A stretch of DNA of 64,000 nucleotides from an uncultured bacterium. GTDB lineage: Bacteria > Oederibacteriota > Muellerivitia > Muellerivitales > Muellerivitaceae. Shown piece by piece: positions 12,988 to 39,262 of this stretch. A model generated the notes under the pieces. It was not told where the DNA came from, searched no databases, and was given only the letters and a program-made list of their open reading frames with translations. Made by a program: the position numbers and the translations under genes. The first letter of the stretch is position 1, and every line of letters begins with the position of its first letter. The stretch covers positions 133,153 to 197,152 of the forward strand of contig CAZGKT010000001.1 in the NCBI GenBank assembly GCA_964525605.1, in the 5' to 3' direction.

Positions 12988-15489
12988 ATGGGTATAGTTA
13001 GCCAATTTCCCAAGCTATTCGAATTTGCAGCCCAATCATTTTGCCTATCAAGGAGACGATTAATGCCTGAGGTTAAACTTTGCGGGAAATGCGGTACGAA
13101 AAATCCATCATCAAATAGTTTTTGCGAACAATGCGGCAGTAAATTAAGCACACAAAACACTTCTTCGGCGACTACAGAAAAAACGGAAAAGAAACAACCG
13201 GTTTCGGTCAAATCTGCAAAGACTGGAATTAGTGCACCACCAGACTTAATAGTCGAAAAAAATCTCACTATCACCACCTCAGGGATGAACGCATCTAGCG
13301 TAACGGTCACATGGATGAATCTTTTTTATGTCGCACTACTGTTGATCACTATTTTTACGCGTTTTGATCATCTTGGTTCCAAACCGCATCATCATGATGA
13401 AAGCATGCACTCCTTTTATTCCTACCAACTTTTCAAAGATGGCGATTACGAATACAACCCAATGATGCACGGGCCCTTCCAGTTCCACGGAAACGCATTG
13501 ATGTATTACCTATTCGGTGTTTCAGATGCCACCTCACGGTATCTGGCAGCTTCTTTTGGCGTCCTAACAGTGATACTCGCCATGTTTCTCTCTCCTTTTC
13601 TCGGCCGCACAGGTGCCTTTCTGGCAACGCTACTCATCGTTTTTTCTCCAAGTTTTATGTATTTTGACCGTTTTACTCGGGAAGACGCTTATATTTGCGG
13701 GGCCACCTTTGCTATGGTCGTATTTTTATTCCGCTATGTTCGTTCCCGTCAACCCATCGACTTGTGGATTGCCTCACTAGGTTTTATCATTGCTTTCTGT
13801 ACCAAAGAATCCATGTTTATCACGATTGCCGTTATTGGGACCTATCTTTTTATTCGTCTGCTTCCCTGGCTCGATGTCTTTATCGCCGGAGGCTTAACTT
13901 GCTTGGGCGTTCTCTCGCAATTAGTCTTGAAAAATGTCGCTCCAGAAATGCCACAATCCACCCGTATTGTTTTCTTGCTCGTTTTTGCCGGCTCGGCTTT
14001 AGCTTGGACCCTTTACAACCTTTACATTCGATGGAAGTCAAACCAAGGAAAAAATTCAGAAAGTAACCTTTGGTCTGTTATCGAAAGCTTACGTATTGAA
14101 AAAGTCCAAATGGAATTAATGCTTTTTGCCGGTTGGTGGGTCCTGTGTCTCTTGTATTTGCGTCTATCCTTTTTGCAGCTTCCGCAGTTTACATTTATTT
14201 CAGTTCTGCTTTTGCTGGCCTACTTCATTCTTATTGGGCGTTTCGCTTGGTTGTGGCTCAGCAACGTATCCTCAGCCCTGACCGGTTCCATAACCATTGT
14301 TTCAGTTGTCTTTACCCTCCTCTTCACCACCTTTTTCACGGTGGGCGCCAATCAGCCGGATTGGCTAAGCCGGCTTCACTATCTTTTAAATGCCCTTTAT
14401 AACGGGGCATTTGGAGGTCTTGAATATTGGTGGGGACAACATGATGTCCACCGGGGTGACGAGCCTTTCTATTATTACCTGGTTGAACTTCCTGCCAACG
14501 AACTGGTTTCGTTCTTGTTTTCTGGGATTGCCATAGTTTATTACGGGGTTTTCAAGCGAAAAAACCTCCCACTTTTCTTGTCGTATTGGTACCTGGGTTC
14601 GTTGGCGCTCTTTTCCTGGGCTGGTGAAAAAATGCCCTGGTTGATCCTCCACCCCCTTCTACCTGCCTTGCTTTTAACCGCCTTTTTTGTGGGTGAAATT
14701 TGGGACGCCGTGCCCATCCAACAAGGTTGGCGATCCGCTCGAATTGCCGCACTTATGGGGTTCGGAATCCTCGCTTCATACTCCTTGCATTCGGCAGTTC
14801 TATTAAGCTTCTACCATGAAGCAAATCCCGTCGAACCCCTCGTCTATGTTCAATCGGGGCCCGATTGCAAAGAAGTGGAGCGAATTATAAGAGAGATTTC
14901 TTATGGAGAAACTGGGGGGCCAGACCTTCCCCTGACCATTGAGGATAAATGTTCCTGGCCATTCGCCTGGCAATTGCGAGATTTCGAAAAACGCAATCAT
15001 CCCTCAATGATTACTCAGGCCGATAACCCCATTATTCTTACCGGAACCGAAGCGGACAACCAATCCTATCCCATACTCAGCCAGGCAGGATATGTGAACA
15101 GGAAATACAAATTAAGGGTCTGGTGGGTTCCGTCCTGGTTTAAAAAGGGCTTTCCGGGCAGCGAAATGAATTTTGGACTTTTCTCGGACTGGCTTTTCAG
15201 TAACTTCATACCTGTCAAGCCGGCACGACCCGACATGGTGGATTGGACCGACCTTAAAAACTGGATTCTTTACCGGCAGGTTTGGTCCGATATGGGCAGT
15301 TATAACATGAGGATGTGGGTTCGCCCCGACTTGGCACAAAAATATGGGTTTACCGAAACGACACGTTCCGACATACCCGTTGATTATCCCAAAGCGGACG
15401 CCGTGACAACAGTATCCGTCCCCCAACCTGAAAATAAAAAAATAAATTTTCTAACATCTAAAAAACAACCCATGCCTAAAAAAAATTAA
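12988..15489 (+). CDS. GT-C-fold polytopic membrane glycosyltransferase-like protein (TIGR03663/PMT/ArnT-like) with N-terminal double-CxxC zinc ribbon
   Basis: 833-aa ORF. The probable true start is the Met at 13063 (MPEVKLCGKCGTKNPSSNSFCEQCGSKL: CxxC-X13-CxxC zinc ribbon). This is followed by >10 predicted TM helices with an early loop motif 'HHHDESMHSFYSYQ' (GT-C-like acidic DE motif), then a ~250-aa C-terminal soluble domain. The C-terminal domain resembles that of the N-terminal half of the 2053-aa protein. Confidence 0.6.
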   Translation: MGIVSQFPKLFEFAAQSFCLSRRRLMPEVKLCGKCGTKNPSSNSFCEQCGSKLSTQNTSSATTEKTEKKQPVSVKSAKTGISAPPDLIVEKNLTITTSGMNASSVTVTWMNLFYVALLLITIFTRFDHLGSKPHHHDESMHSFYSYQLFKDGDYEYNPMMHGPFQFHGNALMYYLFGVSDATSRYLAASFGVLTVILAMFLSPFLGRTGAFLATLLIVFSPSFMYFDRFTREDAYICGATFAMVVFLFRYVRSRQPIDLWIASLGFIIAFCTKESMFITIAVIGTYLFIRLLPWLDVFIAGGLTCLGVLSQLVLKNVAPEMPQSTRIVFLLVFAGSALAWTLYNLYIRWKSNQGKNSESNLWSVIESLRIEKVQMELMLFAGWWVLCLLYLRLSFLQLPQFTFISVLLLLAYFILIGRFAWLWLSNVSSALTGSITIVSVVFTLLFTTFFTVGANQPDWLSRLHYLLNALYNGAFGGLEYWWGQHDVHRGDEPFYYYLVELPANELVSFLFSGIAIVYYGVFKRKNLPLFLSYWYLGSLALFSWAGEKMPWLILHPLLPALLLTAFFVGEIWDAVPIQQGWRSARIAALMGFGILASYSLHSAVLLSFYHEANPVEPLVYVQSGPDCKEVERIIREISYGETGGPDLPLTIEDKCSWPFAWQLRDFEKRNHPSMITQADNPIILTGTEADNQSYPILSQAGYVNRKYKLRVWWVPSWFKKGFPGSEMNFGLFSDWLFSNFIPVKPARPDMVDWTDLKNWILYRQVWSDMGSYNMRMWVRPDLAQKYGFTETTRSDIPVDYPKADAVTTVSVPQPENKKINFLTSKKQPMPKKN

Positions 15490-15503
15490 TAAAGATAGAA
15501 TGA

Positions 15504-15541
15504 AAAAGGAGGAACGGTTATTACCGTCCCTCCTTTTTTTA
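15504..15541. terminator. bidirectional terminator hairpin between convergent genes
   Basis: 'aaaaaggaggaacggttattaccgtccctcctttttttaa': ~10-bp stem (1 mismatch), 6-nt loop, T7 tract on + and A5 on the other side. Confidence 0.5.
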
Positions 15542-15558
15542 ATTCTCGATGCCTTTTT

Positions 15559-16287
15559 TTACAGTTTTCCCAACCACACCATCCACCGAAGCTTCCAGAC
15601 CGTGCAAGCAAACAAGGTTAATTCTTTAAGAGAAAGTTTGCTTTCGCCTTGATGTCGGTTTACAAAAACAATCGGAAATTCTATGACTTTCGCATTTAAA
15701 CGAACGGCCCTGAAAAGAATTTCCACCTGAAACGAATAGCCGGGAGAAAATATTTTATTCAAATCGATTTTCTTCAATAGTTCTGCTCGGTAACATTTGT
15801 AACCGCCGGAGCAGTCTTCCGGTTGAAGGCCTAACAGGTATTTCGTCACCGAGTTGGCAAAACGGCTAATAAAAAAACGCCCCATTCCCCAATTCACCAT
15901 TCCCCCATCCCGTACATATCGGGAACCGATCACCAAGTCATATTCCAAGGCCAATTCCAACATTTTGGGGATATTCACCGGATCATGGGAAAGATCGGCA
16001 TCCATCGCGATCACCCGCCGATATCCCTTTTTTAACCCGAATTGCATCCCCTCCACATAAGCGGTTCCAAGACCACTTTTGGCGGAACGGTGAAGCACCT
16101 TTACCCGCCGATCTTTTTTTGCGATAAGGTCCGCAATTTTCCCTGTCCCATCGGGAGAATTATCGTCAACCACCAGTAGGTCGCAAGCCTTTGTGGCTAA
16201 GAATATTTTTTTGTAGACCGTCTCAATATTTCCCTTTTCGTTGTAAGTGGGGACAACAATTAAGGTTTGGTTTCTGGTTGAAGGCAT
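15559..16287 (-). CDS. GT2-family polyprenyl-phosphate sugar synthase (dolichyl-phosphate mannose synthase Dpm1/Ppm1-like)
   Basis: 242 aa: 'VVPTYNEKGNIETV', 'VVDDNSPDGTGKIA', 'RVIAMDADLSHDP' (DxD / D-A-D catalytic motifs of GT-A Dpm1-like enzymes). Confidence 0.8.
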   Translation of the reverse strand: MPSTRNQTLIVVPTYNEKGNIETVYKKIFLATKACDLLVVDDNSPDGTGKIADLIAKKDRRVKVLHRSAKSGLGTAYVEGMQFGLKKGYRRVIAMDADLSHDPVNIPKMLELALEYDLVIGSRYVRDGGMVNWGMGRFFISRFANSVTKYLLGLQPEDCSGGYKCYRAELLKKIDLNKIFSPGYSFQVEILFRAVRLNAKVIEFPIVFVNRHQGESKLSLKELTLFACTVWKLRWMVWLGKL

Positions 16288-16449
16288 TTAATCCCTATTT
16301 TCGGTCAAATGAAGAAATTTAAAATCTCGTTAAAAATAAAGTTCTTCATAAAATCGACTTAATAGTAGTCTAATTTAAAAGCAGGGAACAACTAACAAAG
16401 GTATGTACGACCAATATCTTTAATCAAGAAAAACACCATCGCTAAAATA

Positions 16450-17481
16450 CTATTTCCCTGGTTTCATAATTGGAACAAACCGAGCTACACGATTAATTCC
16501 CTTTTCAACCACCAAAACTCTACCAGCTGTATCCACGGCGATTCCTGCCGTTTCACCCATCGTATCCTTTCGTTGATAAATGGCTAAAAGTTTCCCATCC
16601 GTAGTAAATCTTAAGACCGCACCACGACTGGCGTTGCTCGCATAAATATTACCCTGGTAAAAAGCTAGATAGGGCATCTCCTCGTTTTTACCTTTCCAGG
16701 TTAAAACTTTAAAGGACCCTAAAAATCTTCCATTTAGATCAAACTTTTGTATCCTGCGATTGTCCGAATCAGCAACATAAAGAAAACCGCCGGGGTCAGC
16801 TGTTATTCCAACTGGTTCCTGAAATTGTCCGTTAGCTGAGCCAAAGCCGCCCCACTCCATTAAAAAATTACCATTTAAATCAAAAACTTGTATTTTGTGG
16901 TTACCCGTATCGCAAACGAAGATTCGATTGCCCACCTCCACCAGATCTCGAGGACCAAAAAAACCATGGTTGAATTTAGAAAGAAATTTTCCCTTTCCAT
17001 CAAACTTTTGCACCCTGTGGTTGAAAGTATCGCAGACCAACAGGTTTCCCTGTCCATCCACGATTAAACCGCTGGGTTGAACAAATTGCCCATCCCCTTT
17101 GCCTTGAGTTCCAAAAGCAAATTCTTCCTGGCCGTTGGAATCAAACTTACGGATATTATGTGCGCTGAAATCGCTGACATAAAATCCTCCATCGGGAGAA
17201 GCCGCCACCACCTGGGCTTCCTTAAATTTCTCGGATTTGGGCCCAGAACCATCCACTTCCATATCCGTGTAGATTTGGACAATTTTTGAGAGTGTCAGGG
17301 CCTGGGTCAATCGATCCACCCCCACATACGTCAAGACAGCCAAAAGGGCCAAACCAAAAACAACTGATAAAACCACCATCCCTTTGCCAATTTTTCTTTT
17401 TTTCGCATTTCCCGTCTGCAACTTCGACTTCTTTGAGCGGAGGGTGGATTTATTGGGCATGCTTTTCTCCTTAGGATTCAA
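16450..17481 (-). CDS. N-terminally membrane-anchored NHL-repeat beta-propeller protein
   Basis: 343 aa. Basic N-terminal tail plus TM (MVVLSVVFGLALLAVLTYVG). Six repeats of the 'G.F..P.G.a.d..G.iyVaD..N.RIQ.Fd..G.F' type (e.g. 'NHRVQKFDGKGKF', 'NHKIQVFDLNGNF', 'NRRIQKFDLNGRF'). Confidence 0.75.
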   Translation of the reverse strand: MNPKEKSMPNKSTLRSKKSKLQTGNAKKRKIGKGMVVLSVVFGLALLAVLTYVGVDRLTQALTLSKIVQIYTDMEVDGSGPKSEKFKEAQVVAASPDGGFYVSDFSAHNIRKFDSNGQEEFAFGTQGKGDGQFVQPSGLIVDGQGNLLVCDTFNHRVQKFDGKGKFLSKFNHGFFGPRDLVEVGNRIFVCDTGNHKIQVFDLNGNFLMEWGGFGSANGQFQEPVGITADPGGFLYVADSDNRRIQKFDLNGRFLGSFKVLTWKGKNEEMPYLAFYQGNIYASNASRGAVLRFTTDGKLLAIYQRKDTMGETAGIAVDTAGRVLVVEKGINRVARFVPIMKPGK

Positions 17482-17493
17482 TCAAACTTGATC

Positions 17494-18546
17494 TTATTGG
17501 CCCTTGATCTTGAAAAGGCTTCCAGCCCCTGCGTCAACAACAAGCAAGTTCCCATCCTTATCGACCGCCAGACCCATCGGAACGCGGAACAGATCGTTAC
17601 CAGCCGAATCCTTTTGAATCGAAGTCACCAAGGTTCCGTCGAGATGGTAGCAAAGAACCTGTTTGCCCCTGCCATCCGAAACGTACAGAAGCTGTTTCGT
17701 TTTATCCAATGCCAAGTGGGGTTCCATATCCACCTGATCCTTGACCCATCCCTTAACCGGCCATTGTTTTAGAAATTGTCCATCGGGGGAGAAAACCTGT
17801 ATCCTGAAATTTAATCGGTCGGCGACGTATAAATTTCCCGCTTGATCCAAAGCCAATCCGATGGGTTCATTGAATTCCCCGGGTTTTGTTCCCGGAATCG
17901 GGGCGCCTGACTTGGGGTCTACCGCACACCAGGTCCGTATTTTTTGGCCCTTGGGGTCGAATTTAACGACACGGTGTTTCCCAGTATCCGCGACATAGAT
18001 AAAACCATTTCCGTCGACCGCAACTTCTCGAGGTCCCCAAAATCCATCTCCAATAGCAAATGCCAACTTAGGATTGCCATTTTTATTGAATATTTGAATA
18101 CGGGCGTTCCAAGTGTCGGCGACATAAATAGTATCGTCAGAACCAATGGCAATACCATTCGGCTCGTTCAACTTTCCAGGAAGGGCTGAAGAAAGTTTCT
18201 TTGCGTCCCCACCGCCCACGTTGCCAAATCCCCCAAACTCACCTTGAAATTGCCAATTCTTGGCGGAGAACCGTTGAATTCGATGGTTCTTGCTGTCAGC
18301 CACAAAGATATCGCCCTTACTGTTGACGGCAATTCCGCGAGGATATGAAAACTGGCCCGGTCCGGATCCAGGAGTGCCCCCCATCAGTAAAACCAGGTTA
18401 GCTGCTGCAGGCGATGGTGCCCGGGAGATGATGGGTTTAGGTTTGGAAAGAACCATTGCCCATACCGCCGCCAAGGCCACTAAAATCAGAAGCCCAGCCA
18501 TGATGAGTTCCTTCAGTGTTACAATGCGTTCCCCGATCTTGATCAT
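17494..18546 (-). CDS. N-terminally membrane-anchored NHL-repeat beta-propeller protein (paralog)
   Basis: 350 aa. TM anchor (LIMAGLLILVALAAVWAMV). NHL repeats ('NHRIQRFSAKNWQF', 'NARIQIFNKNGNP', 'KHRVVKFDPKGQK', 'NFRIQVFSPDGQF'). 12-bp spacing to the downstream NHL gene. Confidence 0.75.
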   Translation of the reverse strand: MIKIGERIVTLKELIMAGLLILVALAAVWAMVLSKPKPIISRAPSPAAANLVLLMGGTPGSGPGQFSYPRGIAVNSKGDIFVADSKNHRIQRFSAKNWQFQGEFGGFGNVGGGDAKKLSSALPGKLNEPNGIAIGSDDTIYVADTWNARIQIFNKNGNPKLAFAIGDGFWGPREVAVDGNGFIYVADTGKHRVVKFDPKGQKIRTWCAVDPKSGAPIPGTKPGEFNEPIGLALDQAGNLYVADRLNFRIQVFSPDGQFLKQWPVKGWVKDQVDMEPHLALDKTKQLLYVSDGRGKQVLCYHLDGTLVTSIQKDSAGNDLFRVPMGLAVDKDGNLLVVDAGAGSLFKIKGQ

Positions 18547-18574
18547 TTTCCAACCCTCCCGTTGAATTTTGAAA

Positions 18575-21118
18575 TTATGGATTTAGTTTGTACAACATGG
18601 AATTCCCAACTGCGTATACCAAACTTCCCAATTGGGCGAATTTGGAAAAAGCACCCGTATTCGCCGAGTATTTCTGCCGTTCCGCATCTCCTACATATAT
18701 GTAATCTATATTGTATTTCGTTAATAAGTCCTTTGTTTTTGCGAGATCCATAGAGGTATAGATGGTTTCTACATCCCCCTGGCGACGTTGAATTGTATCA
18801 TCAGAATTCTGTCCCCGGATAACTGCCTGGTCCCAAGATCCACGCCACTGAGCTTCATGAAAATCCCATCCAAGGACCGTTGGAAATCCTGTCAGAGTGG
18901 CCACGGTATCTGTATCTTGATGATATGACAACCCCGGGCATTCCAAAATGATTGGCACCTTTACTCCTGATAAATTTCCCTGTTTTACAGTCGGTTTCAC
19001 ATTTATTTTAATCCATTGCGCCACTTGAAAATCCGCCGGGAAAGTTCGTTCGTAATAAACAGCTCCATCCATGGTAACGTTATCGACTGAAGAACCGTTC
19101 ATACGTGCTGTGAAGGCCAAAACGGGATAAAGGGCCGCCCCCAACAGCGCTAATCCGATCGTAAAACCCCAAACACTTTTTCCCAAGACAGTCCATTGCG
19201 GCCAAGCGTTTTCCATAATCCACTTGAGCCAAAAACCGGAAGCGAGGCTGAGTAAAATCCACGCCTGGTAATGAAACTTGAAAACCGTATTCATCCGATA
19301 AAGAGATCCTCCGGAAAAATGGTCTTTAATAAACACAATCTCACAGCCAATAATCAATAGAAAAGCAAGAAGTGCCAGAAGAGCAGAAAAAATGGTTTCC
19401 CTTGTTTCGGTCTTTTGAATGATCGATAGAACCGCCAACCCCGCCAACAGAAGCGTGGCGAACAGGGTTCCAAGTTTGAGGGCTTCTAAATCCAATAAGC
19501 CAAGCACTAATCCGATGGTTAATAAAGTAACAATCGGTATAAAACGACCCTTTGATCCGTTTAGATACGATATCAATTTATCGAAAATTCCCTGGAGTTG
19601 TACCTTTGGAAGAACCATGACCTCGGAGTCAGAAGCCAGACTCATTTCTCCACCACAAGTTCCACAGTATTTTTTACCAGGATTCTCTCTTCCGCAAAAG
19701 GAGCAGACAGGCTCCTCAGTCTTTTTCGTTTTGGCTTTACCGTTCTTTTCCAGATTCCCCTTCATGATGGATTTGATGATCAAGGCGGGAGTCAAAATCA
19801 AAAAGAACAAGCCAAATAGGATAAACAAATAATAAAGATGGGTTCGGTCCCCCACTATCCCCAGCCCTTTCGCTTGCGACTGAAACTTCAGATAAAAAGG
19901 TAGGTAGATGATGAAACTTCCAGCAACGATCGGAACACCCACTGTAGCTGTTTGAATTAACCAATCCATGAAAGTATCTTCTTTGGCAAGAGCCCAACCC
20001 TGTTGAAGAAAAAGACAGCTTCCTAATAAAAGCATGAAGGTTGGAAAATCCCAACTATTCATGAAGGATAGTCCGCCAAATAAAACCATGAGTAAAAACC
20101 AATAAATCCATCGAACAACGGGCCGTGCACCCAACACCTGCATGCCCCCGAAAGGCGTTCGTAGGAGCGAATAAGCCGCCGCGATCGCCAAAAGGACAAA
20201 CGGAATGGCCATCACATGGGGATGAAGGTCTGAAAGGAAAAAGCTAAATGAAGGAAACTCATTGATCATTTTATCCGTGGGAGGAACGGGAATGATCCGT
20301 GAGGCTTGAAAATAATCCCAACCATGGGCAAGAGGTGAAAAAAGAAAATCGAGGGCTGCCCCCAATCCTTTTGGGGCGCTGGGATTGGCTGGAAAATTGT
20401 AATAAGGGATTCGCAGGTCCCCTATTTGAAAACTCTGGATAACCCGATACCAATAATCCAAGTTTCCGAACAAGGCGAGAGCCGCCACAGAAAATAGAGA
20501 ATATCGATATCGGCGGGTTAACCCATAGGCCAGGGAAAAAGTACAAACCGCGGCCAAAGACCAAGTCAACGCAATCGCTAGGTTATAGGCCACGCCCGAA
20601 CCCACTCCGCTTAAAAGGGAAAGAGCGGAAACGATCATGTAGCCGAAGTAATAATAGGAAATACTGCCTCCAGAAAGCCAAGGATCCTGAGGAGGCATAG
20701 ACGGGGAAGCCAAAATGCCGTTGATCATGGCGAAATCCATGGGTTTTTCGGTCCCGACAATGTCTGGAGTGCGCATTTTGTAAGCACCGGCTATTAAAAA
20801 CGCCATGAGAAACAAAGATTCCACAACTAATATAAAACCCAGGTTTCTGCCCAGATATTCTTTGATGGAAACCCATTGATCCCAAAGAATCCATGAGGAG
20901 AGGAGAATCATCGTCAAGACCGCAAGCCAAACAGTCCCCCTTCCAAAGGAAACATAACCAAAGATCCAGGAAAAATAACCAACCATTAAAAGCGCAACCA
21001 CCTTACTAAAGGCATAGCCTTTTTCGGGAAGATGTCGCAAAAGGATCAAAGTAATTGGCAAAGCCAATATCCCCAAGATTTCAATCATGAACCACCAACC
21101 CAAAAGCGCCGCCATCAT
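18575..21118 (-). CDS. DUF2298 / 'YYY-domain' (TIGR03662-like) large polytopic membrane protein with internal zinc ribbon
   Basis: 847 aa. Signature 'GTEKPMDFAMINGILASPSMPPQDPWLSGGSISYYYFGY' (the YYY motif after the first TM block). Many TM helices. A cytoplasmic-loop zinc ribbon 'EPVCSFCGRENPGKKYCGTCGG' (aa ~470-490, nt ~19654-19710). C-terminal soluble domain ('PTVLGWDFHEAQWRG..IYTSMDLAKTKDLLTKYNIDYIYVG') homologous to the C-terminus of the 2053-aa protein. Confidence 0.65.
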   Translation of the reverse strand: MMAALLGWWFMIEILGILALPITLILLRHLPEKGYAFSKVVALLMVGYFSWIFGYVSFGRGTVWLAVLTMILLSSWILWDQWVSIKEYLGRNLGFILVVESLFLMAFLIAGAYKMRTPDIVGTEKPMDFAMINGILASPSMPPQDPWLSGGSISYYYFGYMIVSALSLLSGVGSGVAYNLAIALTWSLAAVCTFSLAYGLTRRYRYSLFSVAALALFGNLDYWYRVIQSFQIGDLRIPYYNFPANPSAPKGLGAALDFLFSPLAHGWDYFQASRIIPVPPTDKMINEFPSFSFFLSDLHPHVMAIPFVLLAIAAAYSLLRTPFGGMQVLGARPVVRWIYWFLLMVLFGGLSFMNSWDFPTFMLLLGSCLFLQQGWALAKEDTFMDWLIQTATVGVPIVAGSFIIYLPFYLKFQSQAKGLGIVGDRTHLYYLFILFGLFFLILTPALIIKSIMKGNLEKNGKAKTKKTEEPVCSFCGRENPGKKYCGTCGGEMSLASDSEVMVLPKVQLQGIFDKLISYLNGSKGRFIPIVTLLTIGLVLGLLDLEALKLGTLFATLLLAGLAVLSIIQKTETRETIFSALLALLAFLLIIGCEIVFIKDHFSGGSLYRMNTVFKFHYQAWILLSLASGFWLKWIMENAWPQWTVLGKSVWGFTIGLALLGAALYPVLAFTARMNGSSVDNVTMDGAVYYERTFPADFQVAQWIKINVKPTVKQGNLSGVKVPIILECPGLSYHQDTDTVATLTGFPTVLGWDFHEAQWRGSWDQAVIRGQNSDDTIQRRQGDVETIYTSMDLAKTKDLLTKYNIDYIYVGDAERQKYSANTGAFSKFAQLGSLVYAVGNSMLYKLNP

Positions 21119-21151: not shown

Positions 21152-24100
21152 TTAATTTCGAACAGGAGGAGGATTGTAATAAATTTCAACTTCCGGATTT
21201 TTATAAATCAATGGCAAAAAATTGGCAAATTTCGCCAATCCCAAGGTGGGGTAACCGGCTTTGCCCCCGGCTCCATTTCGTTCAATAGTCCCCACCATTA
21301 CGAGTCGAACCCCATAAGCGTCCAACATCCGCTTGGCCAATCCCAGATCCGTTGTTTCGTATATTTGGTCCACTGCCGCTTTACGGTTGTAGATATCGGT
21401 GTCCAACTGTTTTCCCACCCATTCATGTACATGTGAATCCCACCCCATAAGCGCCGGAATACCTGTGAAAATTGAAAAGCGCGAGCCCCAAGAATTATAA
21501 CCTGCACCCACAAATTCCATGAGGCAGGGCTGGTTGGGGACATGGTCGTTCAAAAAGCGAATCGCGGCGTCGTCTCCCGGGTTGGAGCGGTGCATATACT
21601 CGAGCCCGTTTAGCGTAGGGCTTTCCACATAACCAACCCATTTCAGACGAGTTGATTCAAAAAAACCATGACACTTCCTTATTGAAGCCGCCAGGGGATA
21701 AATCGATACCGCTATAGCTAGAATCAAAACCAATGTACTCCAGCATCGGAAGGCGAGTTTCGCACCCATATTCTTTTGACCTTCCCATAGGAAGGCAATT
21801 AGGGTTACTGAAAGAGCCGCAAGAGAACCCGGTAAAAGAAATTCAACATTCAGGATGTTGCTCCAATGTTGAATCAGGTTTAGAAGAGAGCCAAAACTTC
21901 CTTGAGGAAGCAAGGAAACTATTGATACAAAAATCGACATCCCTCCCAGTCCCAAACTTAAAACCCAATCAGCTGTCTTTTTCAAAGTGCTCGTTGTCAA
22001 TCTCCATATCAAAAGGCCCGCCACAACAACGATGTTAATGATATAGGTAATGGGTGTTTGGAGCGAATCGGCAAAGTTGAAAAAGATAAGTTCCAAAATT
22101 AAGAATAGAAGCACCCCGGCCACCGCAACCAGCACGCGTTTGGATACGAGAGTCTCTTTTTTAGCCGTTTTAAGCCATCCCAAAATGAAATCAATCATCT
22201 TGGGAATCAAAGCTCCCACGGCGATGGAGGCCAACATCCAGGCGTGAATTCCAAATTTAAACAAGGAGTTGTTCCGCATCCAGTCGCCGCCCAAAAACTC
22301 ACTGACGGCGAACAATTCCAAAACTGCTAAGACCAGAAATAAAAGCGCGGTTAGAATATAGGTAAAAGAAAGAGGCCGGTCCTTGATAACCTTCACGGCA
22401 AGTCCAAGATAAAAGAATCCCAAGAGCCACAAAACCGAGCAAAGACCCAACCCAAGGGTTAAAGCCATATCCTGATAAAGGTGAATTCCCTGGAGGGAGA
22501 GAACAACTATCCACAGCAATACCACCGCTGCTTCCGCCAGCCATATTTCCCAGCGAGTTTTTAACTGAACCGCAAGCACAAGCAAAATCGCGGCTACGCT
22601 GGCCAATAGCTGTGAGAAAAAGACCTTCCCCTGGGGTTCAGACCAATGAACCCAGGAAGCTCCCCAAACCACCATCAGAGAAAAGAACCCCAGTGACAAA
22701 ATTCCCCGAACGGGGTCTTTAGGGGAAAGCAATCCCGATAGAAAATCAAAGGCTTTGTCGGGCAAATTTTTCAAGAATCGTTTTTCCGGCTTGGCTTTAC
22801 CCACCCAGAGCAAAATCTCTTTGGAATAGGCCAGAACAAAACTCATTAAAAGTATTGAAAGAAAAAAACCATAAATACCAATGAAGTCGTTAAGATCCGT
22901 GCGAATGGACGGCAGAACCCAGAGAATCTTGTTTTGCTGAGGAGTAAATCGAAGAAAGTTCGGAATCCAGAACAAGCCCGCGGTCACCAATATTCCTGCC
23001 ACACCTACTGCAATAAACAGCAAGTGTTTCGAAAGAAGCCGCGTAGTTTTTTGTAAATATAGCCAGAGGACAGACGCTAAAAACCCAAGACCAAGAAATA
23101 GAATCAAGTAGAACGTGGACCCACCCAGAGCCTGTTGATCCACCCCAGGCATGATCAAGGTCCACCAACCCAGCAAGGTAAACGCAAGAACCAGAATGCT
23201 GAAAACCATGCCAGACCCTTTCACAATGGTTTTTCCATTGAGAACTACAAGTCCGCGAACCAAAAGAGTGATCCCGATGATCGCGAGCCCCGTGAGAATA
23301 TCCCAAGTATTCAGAAACACGAGCCCGCCCATCAAAAATCCAGCAACCAGAAACTTGAACCAATCCCCTTTCCAACTAAATAGCTTAGGCGCAGGGGATA
23401 AATAAATGGAAGCCACCACTCCCCATAAAAGCATGTCGAAAGGCATGGCTAGCGTATGTGAATGCATGTCGCCATAAAGCACGCTGAAATAGGGAAACTC
23501 GTTGATACTGTTCGGAATCACTCGAGAGGGGCCAAAAAAATCATAGGTAATTCCGTTAAGCGCGGACAAGTTATGGGCGACTATGCATTGGTTAATCGCG
23601 GCCAAATATTGTTTAACTCCGGTGAGGTTGCTCGCCATTGCACATAAAAAACCTGCCACCCAACCTCCCGAAAGCCGTCCCGATAAGACGTAGGCTAGAC
23701 CGAAAGCGGATGAAAAAATCAGGGCAAATAGAGTTATCAAGCTCAAGTTATAGGTCACGGCAGGTACCAGCCCCAGAGTTTTGGAGAGTATCCCCATCAT
23801 TAGATGGCCAAAATAATACGGGTAACCAATAGGTTGGCCCGCCATCCACATATTTTGTGGAGGGAATGTCTCGCCCCGCACGATGGAGGCCAAAAATCCA
23901 AAATCCATACCCGCTTCTCCACCCCCATTGTATCCTTCGCCCGAGGGATCATGCACATGAGAGGAATAAAGACGGACGAATGTGAACGCGATAAAGGCAA
24001 AAACGAACACGCCTTCTTGAATTAACCAGACACGACCCAAACGCTTATAAAAATCTTTGATAACTTTTCGGTCGCGCCAATACCCATAAACCGAAAGACC

Positions 24101-27100
24101 CGTAAGAAGCAAAAACCAAACCCAACAGGCCCCCGCTGTAAAATGCGTGATTTTCAAGCTTGTCATAAACCACACAACCCAGGTGAAAACAAGGAAACCC
24201 AGAACCTTACTGAGCGAATAGGCCCCCGCAGAAATAGGGGAAAGGATGCGAAGCGTCAGCGGTAATACGAGCCATCCGAGGACAACCAAAAGCGCCAGCC
24301 AGGTGAACCAGGCGCGGCATTGATAACCCGTCTTCTCTTCCGGTCGGGGAGGCAAATTCATGATGTCATTTTCCACAACTGGGTGGTCCGCCAGGTCTTG
24401 CAAAACCTTGAGGGTTTGAGTGTCCGGCAAGCCGGGCACGGTCGCAGGGGCCTGAACTGGGGGGGCGTTAACATCGGTCACGGAGGAAGAGGCAGCGGAT
24501 GCCGGAGGAAGTTTCCCCCCTATGGGGGGCACAATAGCAGGCAAGGTTTTTTCAGCTTGTAGTTTGTCGGGCGGCGGAGGAGATTGAGTTGCAGGCGCGG
24601 AAAGGTTGTTAAGCTTTTGAAGCAGCCCGGCCTGTTCCAGAGCCTGGTTATGTTTGCTGATGAAATCATCCACGTTTTCAGGCGTGATTGCCCTCATCTG
24701 GTCACGAGTAATGCCCCGCACGTAATCATCCGAGTTGAGAATTTCCAAGATGCGTTCTGGAGTCACTTGCTCGACTTTTTTGAAAATATAAACCCGAGGA
24801 TGGTCATACACGGAAAAGGATTCCTCAGCCATATCATCCGGATGGGCCCACCCTAGCAAGCTGGGAAAATTGTGAAATTCATGTAACATTTTGTAACCTA
24901 AAAGCCCAGCCCAGAGGGCCCGGTAATACCGGGAGGTCACTGGATAAGCATTAAACCCGTGAGGCCTGAACTCAGGAGTTTCATCCGTTAGGGTGTACCA
25001 GAGTTTCTTTGAAGAAATGGCGATATAGTCAGCCTGAGGAATCATATTGGCGTAATAATTTTTCTTTACCGGGCTGTCGTCCGTTGGAAAACCGTGCAGT
25101 TCGTAGGGAGTCAAATCCTGGAGTTGGTAAAGTCCCGGATTCATCGGCCGATCTAACCGTGAGTCCTGTTGGGGGTTCAAATCCACCGGCAACCCATCTC
25201 CCCAGGCCTCGTTATAAATCTTTGAGCCAAGGGGTATGTTTTTATAAATCCAGCCTGATGAATCAAGCCAGGGATGCGCATACCGATAGACATGCATATA
25301 GGCCATTGAATAAAAAAGGCTTCCACCAACGGTTAATGCCAATAGCGCGGGTTTGATAAACCTTTCCAGGTTTTTAGGGAGCCGATCAAACACATTCCAC
25401 AAAAAAATCGCCGCAAAAATGCAAAAAACAGGGGCCAGGGGAACCATATAGCGTATGAATTTCGTGTTCCATCCGCCAATAAAGGCGAAATAGGGGATGA
25501 ACCAAGAAAGAAGAATGAGTTCTGGCAGGATAAATCTAAACCCTTTGTTTTTCAGAAAAGGCGCTGGGAGGATCGCTCCGGAAGAAACCGGTTGAAAAAG
25601 CTGAAGAACGAATCTTCCTAAAACCCAAACCATCCCTAGTACCGCCGTGATCCCGAGGGGCCACCACAACTCCACACTGATCAGGTTCTGAAGATGAAAA
25701 ATGTATCGGGGCGTGTCTTTAAATTGCAGCACATAGCAGGCGCCCGCATCAGATACCACCGACCACTCATAATTCATTGAGTTCATAAACCCCTGGTAAT
25801 CCAAGAGGGACCATGGTGAAAGCAAACAAAAGATCAGAAATGAAAGAGCACCGGCCGAAGAAAGTCTTAACCACAGGGGTACCTGGGCCCGCAATACCCT
25901 GAATTTCGAGACTCCCCACACAAACAGGACTGCGGCCATACCTGCAAGAGAGAGAAAAAGAACAATCCAAATGCCAATGGAACCGTTGGGGTTCAAAGGG
26001 CAGAGATCACGTATGACACCCTTTAATTTATAACCTGCTCCAACCAAAGCGCCTGTACCCCCAGCGAGAAACAGTGCCGCGAGAATATTGTTCAGGCTTT
26101 GATCGTCCCTGTTTTTATGATCAAGCTTCAGCCAATCCTTTTCAGTGGTTTTCGATAAATACACCAGATGGCCGATCAAAATCATGAACAGGTAATAAAG
26201 GGAGCTTGTTTTTGCCGCCATGGAAAGACCAAAAGCCGCACCAACTAAAAGGTAATTTTTCCAAGACCCCTGCCGAGAAACTTCATACGCACCAAGTGCG
26301 ATGACCACCAACATGAGGGTGATAAAAGATTCCGTGATGCAGTAATGGCAAACCTGGATACTCACAACGGAGAAAGCGAAAAACGCAGACCCCAAAAGGG
26401 CTAGTGGTTTATTTTCATAAACCTTGTTCAGGAACCAATAAATAACCAGAATGGTCAGGGTGGAAAAAAAGGCGGCCCAAATACGCCCAATAATCATGCA
26501 ATCGCTGTAACCAGTGTATTGAAGGCCATAATGCGAGAAAGAGGCGAAAATGGCCCAAATCCCCAGGGCCATTTGAAGAAGTCGGCCCCACCGGGATTCC
26601 CAGCTAAACCAAGTAAATGCCGCTCCGACGACCAACGCAAAGGCCATGGAACCAAAGGTTCTCGCGAAAGCATCTGGAAGGAAAAATGGTATGACACCCA
26701 ATAAAAAGGTCAATCCAGCTGCGATATAAATTGGGAGTCCTAACCATTCCAATCCGATGAAATCGGACAAAAGGGCCGAAACCCCGAAAAACAAAATCGC
26801 GTCCAAGCAAAAATTCGCTCCTTTTAATGGCCAATCATTCAGAAAATCAAACCAGGCCGAAAACACTGGCACGAATTTGATAAACAAAACAAGCAAAAAC
26901 ACCCCGGAGGCGATTAAGAAAGAAGGAATTTTGAATTTTTTCCGTGGGAAAAGCCAACCGATTCCCGCAAATAGAGAGATAAGAAAAGCCCAATAAAAGA
27001 AAGCAGCTAGGAAAGCCTGGTTGGGGAAAAACGAATTGAAAAAAGACGGGGTAGAAATTAGTTCACCGGTGGCTCGATAAAGGTAAACAGGCAGTTGGCC

Positions 27101-27413: not shown

Positions 27414-27800
27414 TTACCGACAAAAAACCTGGGATCCCCCGACTTGAAGGTTATTACAAAACACCTTAAAAGAATATATTCCCGGGGCTGGAAAGACCAC
27501 CCGCCAACTGGTTATCAGGTCATGAAAGCTCATGTCGGAAAACAAAATCTTGCGTGGAGCCGAATCGGATACTTTGACCCCTTTTTCGTCAAAAAGACTA
27601 ATATCAATTTGAAATTCCCCTCCCGAAGGATGGTTCAGCCTGGTAAAAGTCATAAATTCAACCCCAAATGGATAACCCGGCGGCCCAAACCCTTGAAAAA
27701 CACCTCTTAAGTCGTAATTTTTATTCAAAACATCCTGAAAAATAGAATGACAACAGAGAAAGCTTGAAACCTTTGGCAGATTAAAATCAGTTGAGTTCAC
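27414..27800 (-). CDS. hypothetical small protein (128 aa), possibly translationally coupled to the upstream GT2
   Basis: Start overlaps the GT2 stop in an ATGA arrangement (27797-27800). No recognisable motif. The competing + strand ORF 27255..27710 overlaps the giant gene start and looks less plausible. Confidence 0.35.
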   Translation of the reverse strand: MNSTDFNLPKVSSFLCCHSIFQDVLNKNYDLRGVFQGFGPPGYPFGVEFMTFTRLNHPSGGEFQIDISLFDEKGVKVSDSAPRKILFSDMSFHDLITSWRVVFPAPGIYSFKVFCNNLQVGGSQVFCR

Positions 27801-28585
27801 TGGGGCCGCTTCCCTTTTTCTTTGAAGTACCTCAAAGCTTTTTGATTCATTTCACTTGGCACCTCGAATTTTTCTTTAGCCCCTAATAGCATCCGCCCAA
27901 AACACCAGAGACTCAAGGTTAAAACAATGAACCCATCCAAAACCGTGGTTCCGGCTCGGTAATAGGCAATTTTAACTAAAAATTGATTGTCAATACGGAA
28001 TTTGGCCCTGGCCGTGATAAGAGCGATTTCCTGGGCGCAGGAATATTTTATTCCCGTGTAAAAGGAAAGAATAGTCGGTAGGGTTCGAACCTGTAAGAGG
28101 CGAAGCCCCGATTCGACATCCTGATACCTGTGGCCAGAAAGCACTGAGTTTGTGAATGTTAAAAACCTATTTCCCCATATTTTATATCTTGGGTAGACGG
28201 AAAAATCCCTTTTCGTCAAAACCACATCCACTTTTTTCTTCAGCATGTACCGAACTAATTCGGGAATATATTCGGGTTTGTGTTGTCCATCCGCGTCGAG
28301 GGTGACCACGATGTCTGTATTACTCACGATTCCCTGATCGCGCAAGTATAAGACAAACAAAAACCCCTGTTTTAAGGCGCCGGCCATTCCTGAGTTAAGC
28401 TTTAAATCGACTAGAAACAAACTTTGATCTTTTCTAGAGAAAGCACAAAGAATTTCTCGGCTTCCATCGCTCGAGCCGTCATTCACGCAAACCAAATAAT
28501 CCACCCTCGGCCTTAAAAGGTGAAGAACGGAAAGAAGGTGTTTTTCTTCATTGAAAATTGGTAGTACCGCCACGACTTTTGGCAC
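27797..28585 (-). CDS. GT2-family glycosyltransferase (polyprenyl-phosphate sugar synthase, Dpm1-like)
   Basis: 262 aa: 'AVLPIFNEEKHL', 'VCVNDGSSDGSREIL', 'VVTLDADGQHKPEYIPEL' (DxD / D-x-D catalytic signatures). Basic C-terminal tail with a probable TM segment. Confidence 0.8.
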   Translation of the reverse strand: MPKVVAVLPIFNEEKHLLSVLHLLRPRVDYLVCVNDGSSDGSREILCAFSRKDQSLFLVDLKLNSGMAGALKQGFLFVLYLRDQGIVSNTDIVVTLDADGQHKPEYIPELVRYMLKKKVDVVLTKRDFSVYPRYKIWGNRFLTFTNSVLSGHRYQDVESGLRLLQVRTLPTILSFYTGIKYSCAQEIALITARAKFRIDNQFLVKIAYYRAGTTVLDGFIVLTLSLWCFGRMLLGAKEKFEVPSEMNQKALRYFKEKGKRPQ

Positions 28586-33914: not shown

Positions 33915-34033
<119 letters not shown>

Positions 34034-34129
34034 ACATCGAGATCGTTAACTGTTATTAGCAGTTAAAAAGATTGATTGAAATACTATCCTTGAACCAAAG
34101 TGGATTAGGAATTGCGGTGAAGATGAAAC

Positions 34130-37163
<3,034 letters not shown>

Positions 37164-37446: not shown

Positions 37447-37475
37447 CCGGATCTAACCAGAAGCCCACGCATAGA

Positions 37476-37712: not shown

Positions 37713-39262
<1,550 letters not shown>

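What the first reader, a model, noticed from the sequence alone, without database searches (positions are those of the whole stretch)
13063..19710. Both unfused partners carry CxxC...CxxC zinc ribbons, at different positions
- The 833-aa GT-C-like protein begins with a cytoplasmic double zinc ribbon: CGKCGTKNPSSNSFCEQCG at nt 13063-13140.
- The 847-aa YYY protein carries an equivalent ribbon, CSFCGRENPGKKYCGTCGG, inserted in a cytoplasmic loop at nt ~19654-19710.
- Zinc ribbons on two partner membrane proteins could mediate cytoplasmic dimerisation or bind a cytoplasmic factor.
- The fused giant apparently lacks them, consistent with the fusion replacing a ribbon-mediated interaction.
Basis: seen in the sequence. 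Interest (0 to 1): 0.55.

Follow-up and report, generated by a model that had tools for sequence, protein, structure and literature searches.

The report
Paired cytoplasmic zinc ribbons on glycosyltransferases
Two separately encoded membrane glycosylation proteins of an uncultured soil bacterium (candidate division FCPU426) each carry a small, conserved four-cysteine zinc-ribbon on their cytoplasmic side, gained together in the same lineages, which probably serve as docking handles; a modest, new domain-architecture observation rather than a new kind of system.

Summary
The Agl23-like GT-C protein (true start nt 13063, 808 aa) begins with CGKCGTKNPSSNSFCEQC (nt 13081-13134). The YYY/DUF2298 protein has CSFCGRENPGKKYCGTC (nt 19655-19705) in an internal loop. 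Such a motif arises in 3 and 0 of 20,000 shuffles. Each is a single ribbon, not a double one.

Both ribbons are fully conserved in orthologues and as well conserved as the enzyme cores, while the flanking linkers are not. GT-C topology and the positive-inside rule place both in the cytoplasm. Both model as beta-hairpin knuckles. Both occur in FCPU426 and Goldbacteria-type homologues, and both are absent from Chloroflexi pairs.

- The 2053-aa giant is not a fusion of these two proteins. It is an older paralogous module pair.
- Ribbon-free unfused pairs exist in Chloroflexi.
- None of 84 fused or stand-alone relatives of the giant's N-module has a ribbon.

My best reading is that the ribbons are co-acquired cytoplasmic docking modules that tie both membrane proteins to a shared cytoplasmic partner, or to each other, within one glycosylation gene cluster. 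That function is inferred, not shown. Interest is modest: a new variant of a known kind.

The parts
13063..15489 (+). Protein A: Agl23-like GT-C-fold membrane protein (TIGR03663 family), 808 aa from the corrected start.
   Evidence: NCBIfam TIGR03663 scores 241.9 bits against a cut-off of 126.25. Pfam PMT_2 matches. The AF2 model has pLDDT 87.6. Foldseek finds STT3, ArnT, Pmt4 and PglB. A Shine-Dalgarno sequence and the orthologue starts support the ATG at 13063.
13063..13149 (+). N-terminal Cys4 zinc ribbon of A (aa 1-29). The Cys ligands are C7, C10, C21 and C24 of the 808-aa protein, at nt 13081-13134.
   Evidence: Pfam Zn_Ribbon_1 scores 25.0 bits. All four Cys are 100% conserved in 47 orthologues, and the mean frequency of the commonest residue per column is 0.77. 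The AF2 model shows beta-hairpins with pLDDT 79-91.
13150..13311 (+). Low-complexity, poorly conserved tether (aa 30-83) between the ribbon and TM1.
   Evidence: pLDDT is below 50 for aa 32-69. Column conservation is 0.32, against 0.74-0.86 elsewhere in the protein.
18575..21118 (-). Protein B: YYY / DUF2298 membrane protein (TIGR03662 family), 847 aa, predicted GT-C fold with an AglB-like C-terminal domain.
   Evidence: Pfam DUF2298 scores 363 bits. TIGR03662 scores 497.9 bits against a cut-off of 300.25. The AF2 model has pLDDT 92 and pTM 0.95. Foldseek finds DPY19, AglB, AftA, ArnT and PglB.
19541..19765 (-). Cytoplasmic loop of B (aa 452-526) that holds the inserted ribbon. Homologues without a ribbon have a short basic loop here.
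   Evidence: Alignment of 86 homologues. The loop has 13 K+R. Short loops on the cytoplasmic side ('in') have K+R density 0.208, against 0.064 for those on the outer side ('out').
19655..19705 (-). Cys4 zinc ribbon of B: C472, C475, C485, C488.
   Evidence: The four Cys are 100% conserved in 42 orthologues, and ribbon-column conservation is 0.75 against 0.38-0.40 for the flanks. Zinc-ribbon Pfam families are hit in orthologue loops: DZR_2 in 27 of 37, Zn_Ribbon_1 in 8 of 37 with best E 1.1e-8. AF2 pLDDT is 61-82 with short strands.
21152..27313 (-). Giant 2053-aa protein: a PMT_2-like GT-C module (aa ~1-990), a P/A-rich linker, and a YYY/DUF2298 module (aa ~1000-2053). It is a paralogous fused system with no ribbon.
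   Evidence: DUF2298 is matched at aa 1042-1694. The N-module profile matches the Agl23-like profile at 94% probability over 112 columns only. No ribbon is present in any orthologue examined.
22706..22798 (-). Basic loop of the giant's YYY module (aa 1506-1536) that I take to correspond to B's ribbon loop. It is 31 aa with 8 K+R and no Cys.
   Evidence: The correspondence is inferred from its position in the TM series, not from an alignment.
15559..16287 (-). GT2 glycosyltransferase, 242 aa, with no predicted transmembrane segment. It is a candidate cytoplasmic donor-synthesising partner.
   Evidence: Pfam Glycos_transf_2, E 3.1e-27. The maximum 19-residue hydropathy is 1.27. It is syntenic in all FCPU426 loci.
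16450..17481 (-). NHL-repeat beta-propeller protein with a basic N-terminal tail and one TM anchor.
   Evidence: Pfam NHL, hydropathy, conserved synteny.
17494..18546 (-). Second NHL-repeat beta-propeller protein with an N-terminal TM anchor.
   Evidence: Pfam NHL, hydropathy, conserved synteny.
27797..28585 (-). Second GT2 glycosyltransferase, 262 aa, upstream of the giant.
   Evidence: Pfam Glycos_transf_2, conserved synteny.

Best explanation
**What is there (shown).** Two separately encoded GT-C-fold membrane proteins belong to one conserved envelope-glycosylation gene cluster in candidate division FCPU426. One is an Agl23-like protein (TIGR03663). The other is a YYY/DUF2298 protein (TIGR03662). 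Each carries one Cys4 zinc ribbon of the common CxxCG...[FY]CxxCG type on the cytoplasmic face.

- In the Agl23-like protein the ribbon is an N-terminal extension held on a disordered tether of about 55 residues ahead of TM1.
- In the YYY protein the ribbon is part of an insertion of about 65 residues in a loop that is short and basic in ribbon-free homologues.
- Both additions are invariant within their clades, and the two have the same phyletic distribution.

**What it does (inferred).** The ribbons are zinc-stabilised protein-docking modules. They let both membrane proteins hold the same cytoplasmic partner, or hold each other. This would assemble three steps into one machine: synthesis of the polyprenyl-phosphate-sugar donor on the cytoplasmic face, flipping of that donor, and its transfer outside the membrane. 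My favoured partner is the membrane-anchor-less GT2 encoded in the cluster. That choice is speculative.

**The giant.** The neighbouring 2053-aa giant is an older paralogous fused system, so its lack of ribbons says nothing about fusion replacing them.
For: - **Motifs and chance:**
- **Family assignments:**. Both proteins model with a GT-C fold at high confidence, with Foldseek hits to STT3, AglB, PglB, ArnT, DPY19 and AftA.
- **Cytoplasmic side, protein A:** the ribbon precedes TM1 (aa 84-101), and the next loop carries the family's invariant D112-E113. In solved GT-C enzymes that loop is extracytoplasmic and the N-terminus is cytoplasmic (established knowledge).
- **Cytoplasmic side, protein B:** the ribbon loop is separated by an odd number of modelled TM helices from the loops bearing invariant acidic residues and from the AglB-like C-terminal domain. 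It is K/R-rich: short 'in' loops have K+R density 0.208 against 0.064 for 'out' loops.
- **Conservation:** the ribbon is present in 48 of the 56 closest A orthologues. The other 8 are N-terminally short gene calls, and the one checked is a miscalled start with the ribbon encoded upstream. It is present in 65 of the 66 closest B orthologues; the exception is a fragment. Ribbon columns score 0.77 and 0.75, against 0.32-0.40 for the flanks.
- **Correlated distribution:** among loci holding both unfused genes, 8 have both ribbons, 2 have neither and none is mixed. In Goldbacteria the two ribbon-bearing genes are adjacent with a 10-bp gap. Only 10 of 150 family-wide YYY representatives have a ribbon, always in the same loop.
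- **Not a lineage-wide habit:** across about 330 kb of FCPU426 loci, the strict motif occurs almost only in these two proteins.
- **GT2 partner:** the 242-aa GT2 has no TM segment.
Against: - No interaction was tested.
- The correlated gain may reflect only one or two evolutionary events, because FCPU426 and Goldbacteria-type clades may share an ancestor. The statistical weight is therefore small.
- In three lineages (L009, L025, L032) a ribbon-bearing YYY has no Agl23-like gene within 10 kb. Whether one lies elsewhere in those genomes is unknown.
- High conservation of a 25-residue fold could reflect folding constraints rather than an interface.
- B's window copy does not reach any Pfam zinc-ribbon gathering score.
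- Zinc binding itself is not shown.
Confidence: 0.45

Rival explanations
1. The two ribbons bind each other and so hold the unfused partners together as a cytoplasmic heterodimer. In the fused giant the covalent link makes the ribbons unnecessary.
For: - Both ribbons are cytoplasmic and of the same type.
- They co-occur perfectly in loci that hold both genes.
- The giant in the same genomes never has one.
- A's ribbon sits on a long flexible tether that could reach a partner.
Against: - The giant is not a fusion of A and B. Its N-module is only remotely related to A, and its C-module is 27-29% identical to B.
- Giant-plus-YYY systems in Anaerolineales have no ribbons.
- Unfused YYY/Agl23-like pairs in Chloroflexi have no CxxC at all.
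- None of 84 N-module homologues, including stand-alone ones, has a ribbon.
- By my topology count, the fusion junction joins an external C-terminal domain to an external N-terminus, on the opposite side of the membrane from the ribbons (inference).
- Isolated zinc ribbons are not known as homotypic dimerisation modules (my own knowledge).
Confidence: 0.15
2. The ribbons are topology or biogenesis determinants. A fast-folding zinc module would keep the N-terminus of A and one loop of B in the cytoplasm, or stabilise the proteins, without binding any specific partner.
For: - N-terminal ribbon, then TM, then an extracytoplasmic domain is a widespread architecture of unknown function (PMC3355149).
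- Both ribbons sit exactly at cytoplasm-membrane boundaries.
- High conservation could be purely structural.
Against: - Ribbon-free homologues have the same predicted topology with ordinary basic loops.
- This model does not explain why exactly these two partner proteins gained ribbons together while the paralogous giant and other membrane proteins in the same genomes did not.
- A disordered tether of about 55 residues is not needed for a topogenic plug.
Confidence: 0.15
3. The ribbons are regulatory sensors, or they bind nucleic acid or the ribosome. Under this model the Cys4 sites would sense redox state or zinc. Alternatively they would tether the enzymes to RNA or translating ribosomes, coupling glycosylation to cell state or to protein export.
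For: - Zinc ribbons often bind nucleic acids and proteins (PMC3355149 and PMC3581485).
- B's loop weakly resembles ribosomal-protein and TFIIB ribbons in a few orthologues.
- Invariant lysines K5, K13 and K27 lie in A's ribbon.
Against: - No DNA-binding or signalling domain accompanies the ribbons.
- The hits to ribosomal and TFIIB ribbons are the generic cross-matches expected within the zinc-ribbon clan.
- No evidence of any kind for redox switching.
Confidence: 0.1
4. The motifs are chance cysteine patterns that do not bind metal.
For: B's window copy is below all Pfam zinc-ribbon gathering thresholds.
Against: - Chance frequency is 3 of 20,000 shuffles for A and 0 of 20,000 for B.
- All eight Cys are invariant over dozens of orthologues, down to about 31% identity.
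- The two ribbon profiles match each other.
- Both model as hairpin knuckles.
Confidence: 0.02

Closest known systems
Agl23 of Haloarcula hispanica (TIGR03663, 'flippase activity-associated protein Agl23')
   Same: Protein A passes the NCBIfam model (241.9 bits against a cut-off of 126.25). It keeps the family's invariant DE, HGP and Arg residues. It is encoded next to or near a TIGR03662 YYY protein and a GT2. HhAgl23 is described as a putative hexose-P-dolichol flippase, and the purified protein flipped M5GN2-PP-Dol in liposomes (PMC11182771).
   Different: Protein A is bacterial and from a diderm; Lpt genes lie in the window. I did not have the HhAgl23 sequence, so the absence of a ribbon there is not checked. 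Flippase activity is not testable here.
Chlor_Arch_YYY / DUF2298 family (TIGR03662, PF10060), function unknown
   Same: Protein B is a full-length member (497.9 and 363 bits) with the YYYxG motif. The family description's two classes, single-domain and long fused, are both present in this window.
   Different: B belongs to a subfamily with a zinc-ribbon insertion of about 65 residues in one cytoplasmic loop. Only 10 of 150 family representatives have it. No paper in the searchable library describes the family's function. My models indicate a GT-C fold with an AglB-like C-terminal domain.
N-terminal zinc-ribbon + TM + extracytoplasmic-domain proteins (Pfam PF13240 / PF12773 / PF13248 architectures, e.g. 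YARHG-domain proteins)
   Same: A small Cys4 ribbon on the cytoplasmic side of a membrane protein, with function unknown. The literature infers it to be intracellular and to bind nucleic acid or protein (PMC3355149).
   Different: Here the carriers are polytopic GT-C enzymes rather than single-pass proteins. One ribbon is inserted in an internal loop. Two partner proteins carry matched ribbons.
STT3 / AglB / PglB oligosaccharyltransferases, ArnT and PMT (GT-C glycosyltransferases)
   Same: Best structural matches of both models. Conserved acidic residues lie in external loops. B has a C-terminal globular domain matching AglB's.
   Different: TM-scores are low (0.3-0.4) and sequence identity is 9-15%. 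I know of no cytoplasmic zinc ribbon in these enzymes, and a literature search for 'GT-C' with 'zinc ribbon' returned nothing.
Membrane tethering of anchor-less polyprenol-phosphate-mannose synthases (human DPM1 by DPM3; mycobacterial Ppm1 by Ppm2). From my own knowledge, not tested here.
   Same: A soluble GT2 that makes the lipid-linked sugar must be held at the membrane by a partner. The cluster's 242-aa GT2 has no TM segment.
   Different: In those systems the tether is a helix or a separate membrane protein, not a zinc ribbon. No evidence here links the GT2 to the ribbons.

Membership tests
Zinc ribbon (Pfam Zn_Ribbon_1 PF13240 and related) | Two CxxC knuckles, giving four Cys ligands, separated by a short hairpin | tested here: met
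   A has C-x2-C-x10-C-x2-C. B has C-x2-C-x9-C-x2-C. The Cys are invariant in orthologues.
Zinc ribbon (Pfam Zn_Ribbon_1 PF13240 and related) | Profile score at or above the curated cut-off | tested here: inconclusive
   A scores 25.0 bits on PF13240, exactly at the 25.0 cut-off. B's window copy reaches at most 18.7-20.5 bits on any ribbon model, below the cut-offs. Among B-orthologue loops, 8 of 37 hit PF13240 (best E 1.1e-8), 27 of 37 hit DZR_2 and 15 of 37 hit Zn_ribbon_3. The A and B ribbon profiles match each other, E 5.5e-9.
Zinc ribbon (Pfam Zn_Ribbon_1 PF13240 and related) | Beta-hairpin ribbon fold | tested here: met
   AF2 models: A has strands at aa 4-6 and 13-15 with pLDDT 79-91. 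B has short strands around aa 470-500 with pLDDT 61-82. This is prediction only.
Zinc ribbon (Pfam Zn_Ribbon_1 PF13240 and related) | Binds one Zn2+ | not testable with these tools
   Needs metal analysis of purified protein.
Double zinc ribbon (DZR, PF12773) | Two consecutive ribbons (eight Cys) | tested here: not met
   Each protein has only four clustered Cys. The DZR profile is matched over positions 1-23 of 45 only and below the cut-off.
TIGR03663 (Agl23) | HMM score above the curated cut-off | tested here: met
   241.9 bits against 126.25.
TIGR03663 (Agl23) | Invariant N-terminal DE dipeptide, HGP tripeptide and two Arg. This is the family description as I recall it. | tested here: met
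   Invariant columns D112 E113, H136 G137 P138, R100 and R159 among 79 aligned members.
TIGR03663 (Agl23) | Encoded in the same genome as, and often near, a TIGR03662 protein | tested here: met
   The genes are about 3 kb apart in the window. They are adjacent or overlapping in L023, L028 and L029.
TIGR03663 (Agl23) | Lipid-linked sugar flippase activity | not testable with these tools
   Activity has been shown only for HhAgl23 (PMC11182771).
TIGR03662 / DUF2298 (Chlor_Arch_YYY) | HMM score above the cut-off, and the YYYxG motif | tested here: met
   497.9 bits against 300.25 and 363 bits against 27.8. The motif SISYYYFGY is present, with Y155, Y156 and G158 invariant.
GT-C fold glycosyltransferases | Polytopic fold similar to solved GT-C enzymes | tested here: met
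   Foldseek probability is 1.00 to STT3, AglB, PglB, ArnT, DPY19 and AftA, with E down to 6.6e-7. TM-scores are only 0.3-0.4.
GT-C fold glycosyltransferases | Conserved acidic residues in an extracytoplasmic loop near the N-terminal TM helices | tested here: met
   A: invariant D112 and E113 directly after TM1. B: invariant E123 and D144 in the loop at aa 116-172. The side of the membrane is inferred, not measured.
GT-C fold glycosyltransferases | Transfer of sugar from a polyprenyl-phosphate-linked donor | not testable with these tools
   Supported only by context: two GT2 genes lie in the cluster.

The most novel reading that the evidence does not exclude
The two matched ribbons would form a dedicated cytoplasmic docking platform. 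The platform would recruit a soluble factor to a complex of two GT-C proteins. That factor would be the anchor-less GT2 donor synthase or, more radically, the translating ribosome or translocon. This would create a bacterial 'synthesis-flipping-transfer' metabolon, or a co-translocational glycosylation machine, in which DUF2298 acts as an oligosaccharyltransferase-like enzyme.
Probability: 0.15. Interest if true: 0.55.

Novelty: new variant of a known kind. Interest (0 to 1): 0.3.

Why it matters
DUF2298/YYY proteins are a large, uncharacterised family; the representative library holds 6,832 hits at E <= 0.001. Their Agl23-like partners have only recently been tied to lipid-linked sugar flipping.

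Three results give concrete handles on an otherwise opaque pathway in candidate phyla:
- Both partners are GT-C-fold proteins.
- They sit in a conserved cluster with GT2 and NHL-propeller proteins.
- One bacterial clade has equipped both with matched cytoplasmic zinc ribbons.

The ribbons are short, excisable baits for finding cytoplasmic partners.

The work also corrects a tempting but wrong evolutionary story, that a fusion replaced the ribbons. The finding remains a domain-architecture observation about a very common small module, so the wider impact is limited unless a specific partner is found.

Tried and rejected
- **Exact look-up of the window's own YYY protein (P0121):** not on record. 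Taxonomy came from the genome-contig scan instead, which gave FCPU426 MAGs.
- **Had some orthologues lost the N-terminal ribbon?** All eight ribbon-less close hits are N-terminally short gene calls. For P0003 the ribbon is encoded in frame just upstream, so the start was miscalled. I rejected loss for that case and did not check the other seven.
- **A natural 'split giant' in L003 as a test of the fusion idea:** rejected. The split is a frameshift inside the P/A-rich linker with no new start codon.
- **P0061, a ribbon-less Agl23-like relative:** it has no YYY neighbour, so it is uninformative.
- **P0246 and P0247:** these are stand-alone paralogues of the giant's N-module in unrelated contexts. 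They are useful only for showing that such proteins lack ribbons.
- **Comparing GT2 anchoring between lineages with and without ribbons:** the Chloroflexi loci held no GT2 neighbour, so there was no test.
- **Literature searches:** 'DUF2298', 'TIGR03662/3', 'YYY domain', and 'GT-C' with 'zinc ribbon' found nothing relevant.
- **Mirror-tree co-evolution of the two ribbons:** considered and not run. Both follow the species tree, so it would not discriminate between models.


Full report
**1.

ORF 12988-15489 (+) encodes ...MPEVKLCGKCGTKNPSSNSFCEQCGSKL..., with the four Cys at nt 13081-13134. ORF 18575-21118 (-) encodes ...EEPVCSFCGRENPGKKYCGTCGGEM..., with the four Cys at nt 19655-19705.

Shuffling each protein's residues produces a CxxC-x5-25-CxxC motif in 3 of 20,000 trials for A and 0 of 20,000 for B. 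Among 37 window ORFs, only one other protein has such motifs, the 959-aa protein at 3041-5920.

Three details need correcting:
- Each protein has a single Cys4 ribbon, not a double one. The DZR model is matched over half its length only.
- The true start of the first protein is the ATG at 13063. It has an AGGAGA eight bases upstream, and every orthologue starts M-x-E-x-K-x-C, giving 808 aa.
- The giant does contain one CxxC (CHYC, aa 322-325). It lies in a hydrophobic segment and its first Cys is not conserved. The giant has no ribbon.

**2. What the carriers are**

*Protein A* passes NCBIfam TIGR03663, 'flippase activity-associated protein Agl23', at 241.9 bits against 126.25, and Pfam PMT_2.

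*Protein B* passes TIGR03662 (Chlor_Arch_YYY) at 497.9 bits against 300.25, and DUF2298 at 363 bits.

AlphaFold2 models built on 79 and 86 homologues are confident: pLDDT 87.6 with pTM 0.84 for A, and pLDDT 92.0 with pTM 0.95 for B.
- Foldseek against the PDB returns only GT-C glycosyltransferases at the top. For A these are STT3, ArnT, Pmt4, PglB and ALG12. For B they are DPY19, AglB, AftA, ArnT and PglB, plus AglB's C-terminal globular domain.
- Probabilities are 1.00, but TM-scores are only 0.3-0.4.
- Both 'partners' are therefore GT-C-fold proteins.

The surrounding cluster, with genes listed in transcription order along the minus strand (descending window coordinates), is GT2 - giant - YYY - NHL - NHL - GT2, then the Agl23-like gene on the opposite strand. 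It sits between pyruvate:ferredoxin oxidoreductase genes and a UPF0164/Lpt block.

The cluster is syntenic in 15 MAG loci, mostly labelled candidate division FCPU426, which identifies the source lineage.

From the literature, H. hispanica Agl23 is a putative hexose-P-dolichol flippase, and the purified protein translocated M5GN2-PP-Dol in liposomes (PMC11182771). Nothing in the searchable library describes DUF2298.

**3. Both ribbons are on the cytoplasmic side (inferred, but consistently)**

In A, the ribbon is residues 1-29, modelled as beta-hairpins with pLDDT 79-91.
- A disordered, unconserved tether follows (aa 32-69, pLDDT below 50, conservation 0.32), then TM1 at aa 84-101.
- The next loop carries the family-invariant D112-E113.
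- In all solved GT-C enzymes the N-terminus is cytoplasmic and that acidic loop is external (established knowledge). The ribbon is therefore cytoplasmic.

In B, the model's helices put the ribbon loop (aa 452-526) an odd number of TM helices away from two landmarks: the loops with invariant acidic and aromatic residues, and the AglB-like C-terminal domain.
- With that assignment, short loops on the cytoplasmic side ('in') have K+R density 0.208, against 0.064 for those on the outer side ('out'). The ribbon loop itself has 13 K+R.
- In ribbon-free homologues the same position is a short basic loop, so the ribbon is an insertion of about 65 residues into a cytoplasmic turn.

**4. Conservation and distribution**

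*Protein A*:
- 48 of the 56 closest orthologues (53-99% identity) have the ribbon at residues 7-24.
- The other 8 are N-terminally short gene calls. For the one I checked (P0003), the ribbon is encoded in frame just upstream.
- A Goldbacteria-type clade of about 650-aa proteins has it too.
- More distant Chloroflexi-type members, many fused to NHL domains, do not.

*Protein B*:
- 65 of the 66 closest homologues, down to about 31% identity and including Goldbacteria and FCPU426, have it in the same loop. The exception is a fragment.
- With one exception (P0208, which carries the ribbon), the more distant homologues listed lack any CxxC.

In an exhaustive search of 1.84 billion representatives, 10 of the best 150 carry the ribbon, always in that loop. 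The other 140, including 2000-2700-aa fusions, do not.

Ribbon columns are as conserved as the catalytic cores (0.77 and 0.75), while the flanks score 0.32-0.40. The two ribbon profiles match each other: hhalign probability 95.9%, E 5.5e-9. B-orthologue loops hit DZR_2 (27 of 37), Zn_ribbon_3 (15 of 37) and Zn_Ribbon_1 (8 of 37).

**5. The two gains go together**

Among loci that hold both unfused genes, 8 have both ribbons: the window, six FCPU426 loci, and one Goldbacteria locus in which the genes are adjacent with a 10-bp gap. Two have neither; these are Chloroflexi loci L028 and L029, where the genes overlap and contain no CxxC at all. None is mixed.

Across about 330 kb of FCPU426 DNA the strict ribbon motif occurs almost only in these two proteins, so this is not a lineage-wide fashion.

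Two caveats apply. The pattern may rest on one or two evolutionary events. In L009, L025 and L032 a ribbon-bearing YYY has no Agl23-like gene within 10 kb.

**6. The giant is a different system**

- Its N-module has no significant BLASTP similarity to A (best E 0.084). At profile level it matches over only 112 core columns (94% probability, E 1.2e-7). Its relatives are PMT_2/GT39-like proteins.
- Its C-module is 27-29% identical to B.
- Anaerolineales have the same giant-then-YYY arrangement without ribbons.
- None of 84 homologues of the N-module has a ribbon. These include fused proteins of 1350-1714 aa and stand-alone ones of 540-980 aa.
- An apparent split giant in L003 is a frameshift in the P/A linker.
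- By my topology count, the fusion joins an external C-terminal domain to an external N-terminus, on the opposite face from the ribbons.

The absence of ribbons from the giant is therefore real, but it does not support 'fusion replaced a ribbon-mediated interaction'.

**7. Mechanism**

*Shown:* two conserved Cys4 ribbon motifs; their presence in a defined sub-clade of both partner families; and the gene-cluster context.

*Inferred:* their cytoplasmic placement (by topology count and homology); zinc binding; and a docking role.

I favour docking to a common cytoplasmic factor, or to each other, for four reasons:
- The gains are correlated and specific to the two partners.
- One ribbon sits on a long flexible tether.
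- Non-ligand residues are invariant.
- The cluster's 242-aa GT2 lacks any membrane anchor, although it must deliver a lipid-linked sugar to membrane enzymes.

The specific GT2 partner is a guess.

The rivals are direct ribbon-ribbon pairing, a topogenic or stabilising role, and a sensor or nucleic-acid/ribosome-binding role. They remain open at lower probability. Chance is excluded.

**8. Comparison with what is known, and verdict**

The ribbons belong to the ubiquitous bacterial zinc-ribbon families that often precede a TM helix and whose function is unknown (PMC3355149 and PMC3581485). The carriers are members of TIGR03663 and TIGR03662.

Three things are new:
- The matched pair of ribbons on two polytopic GT-C partners.
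- The internal-loop insertion in DUF2298.
- The structural assignment of DUF2298 to the GT-C/OST-like fold.

No paper in the library links GT-C enzymes with zinc ribbons, although precomputed Pfam annotations already flag PF13240 on many of these proteins.

It is a new variant of a known kind, of modest interest (0.3).

Noticed in passing
window 16450-18546 (-); P0072, P0081-P0091, P0096-P0104 and others: The two NHL beta-propeller proteins of the cluster each have a basic N-terminal tail and one TM anchor. In Chloroflexi the NHL propeller is fused to the C-terminus of Agl23-like proteins (877-1140 aa). This is a Rosetta-stone link suggesting that the propellers work with the Agl23-like protein outside the membrane.
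   Followed up: partly
window 18575-21118 (-): DUF2298/YYY models confidently (pLDDT 92, pTM 0.95) as a GT-C fold with an AglB-like C-terminal globular domain. I found no published functional or structural assignment for this large family.
   Followed up: partly
window 13063-15489 (+), aa ~469-473 of the 808-aa protein: The Agl23-like protein has its own conserved YYY motif (GDEPFYYYLVELPANE; Y471 and Y472 are nearly invariant or invariant). It resembles the motif that names its partner family.
   Followed up: no
window 24344-24700 (-) approx.; L002 and L003: The giant's two modules are joined by a P/A/S-rich low-complexity linker. In two MAGs the gene appears split exactly there, by a frameshift in L003 and by overlapping ORFs in L002. 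This is probably an assembly error in the repeat-like linker.
   Followed up: partly
window 9430-11622 (-): A 730-aa protein with a signal-peptide-like N-terminus has a body made almost entirely of degenerate LPPLPG / P-S-N-D-rich repeats and no Pfam hit. It is syntenic but fast-evolving in FCPU426 loci, at 35-63% identity.
   Followed up: no
window 33916-39263 (-): A complete rRNA operon: 16S at 37716-39263, two tRNAs at 37374-37552, 23S at 34132-37162 and 5S at 33916-34031. It could be used to place the organism precisely.
   Followed up: partly
window 6015-9304 (-) and 11728-12780 (-): LptD-N-like and LptF/G genes, plus a UPF0164 (Treponema-type outer-membrane) protein, flank the cluster. 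The organism is therefore a diderm, and the cluster may modify an outer-envelope component.
   Followed up: no
L004, L006, L007, L015 (genome contigs records): Several MAGs titled 'uncultured proteobacterium' carry the same syntenic cluster at 57-59% identity as the FCPU426 MAGs. Their taxonomic labels are probably wrong.
   Followed up: no
P0328-P0341, P0370, P0397 (representative library): Very long proteins of 2400-2750 aa contain a YYY domain at about residue 710-1190 or 1550-2170. These architectures are larger than the window's giant, and none has a ribbon.
   Followed up: no
L023 16450-17736 (Goldbacteria locus): In the Goldbacteria cluster a Wzx-like Polysacc_synt flippase gene follows the NHL genes. 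This sits oddly with the Agl23-like protein being the pathway's flippase.
   Followed up: no
L031 7509-12811: In one FCPU426-type genome a ribbon-bearing Agl23-like gene lies directly upstream of a stand-alone paralogue of the giant's N-module (936 aa), away from any YYY gene.
   Followed up: no
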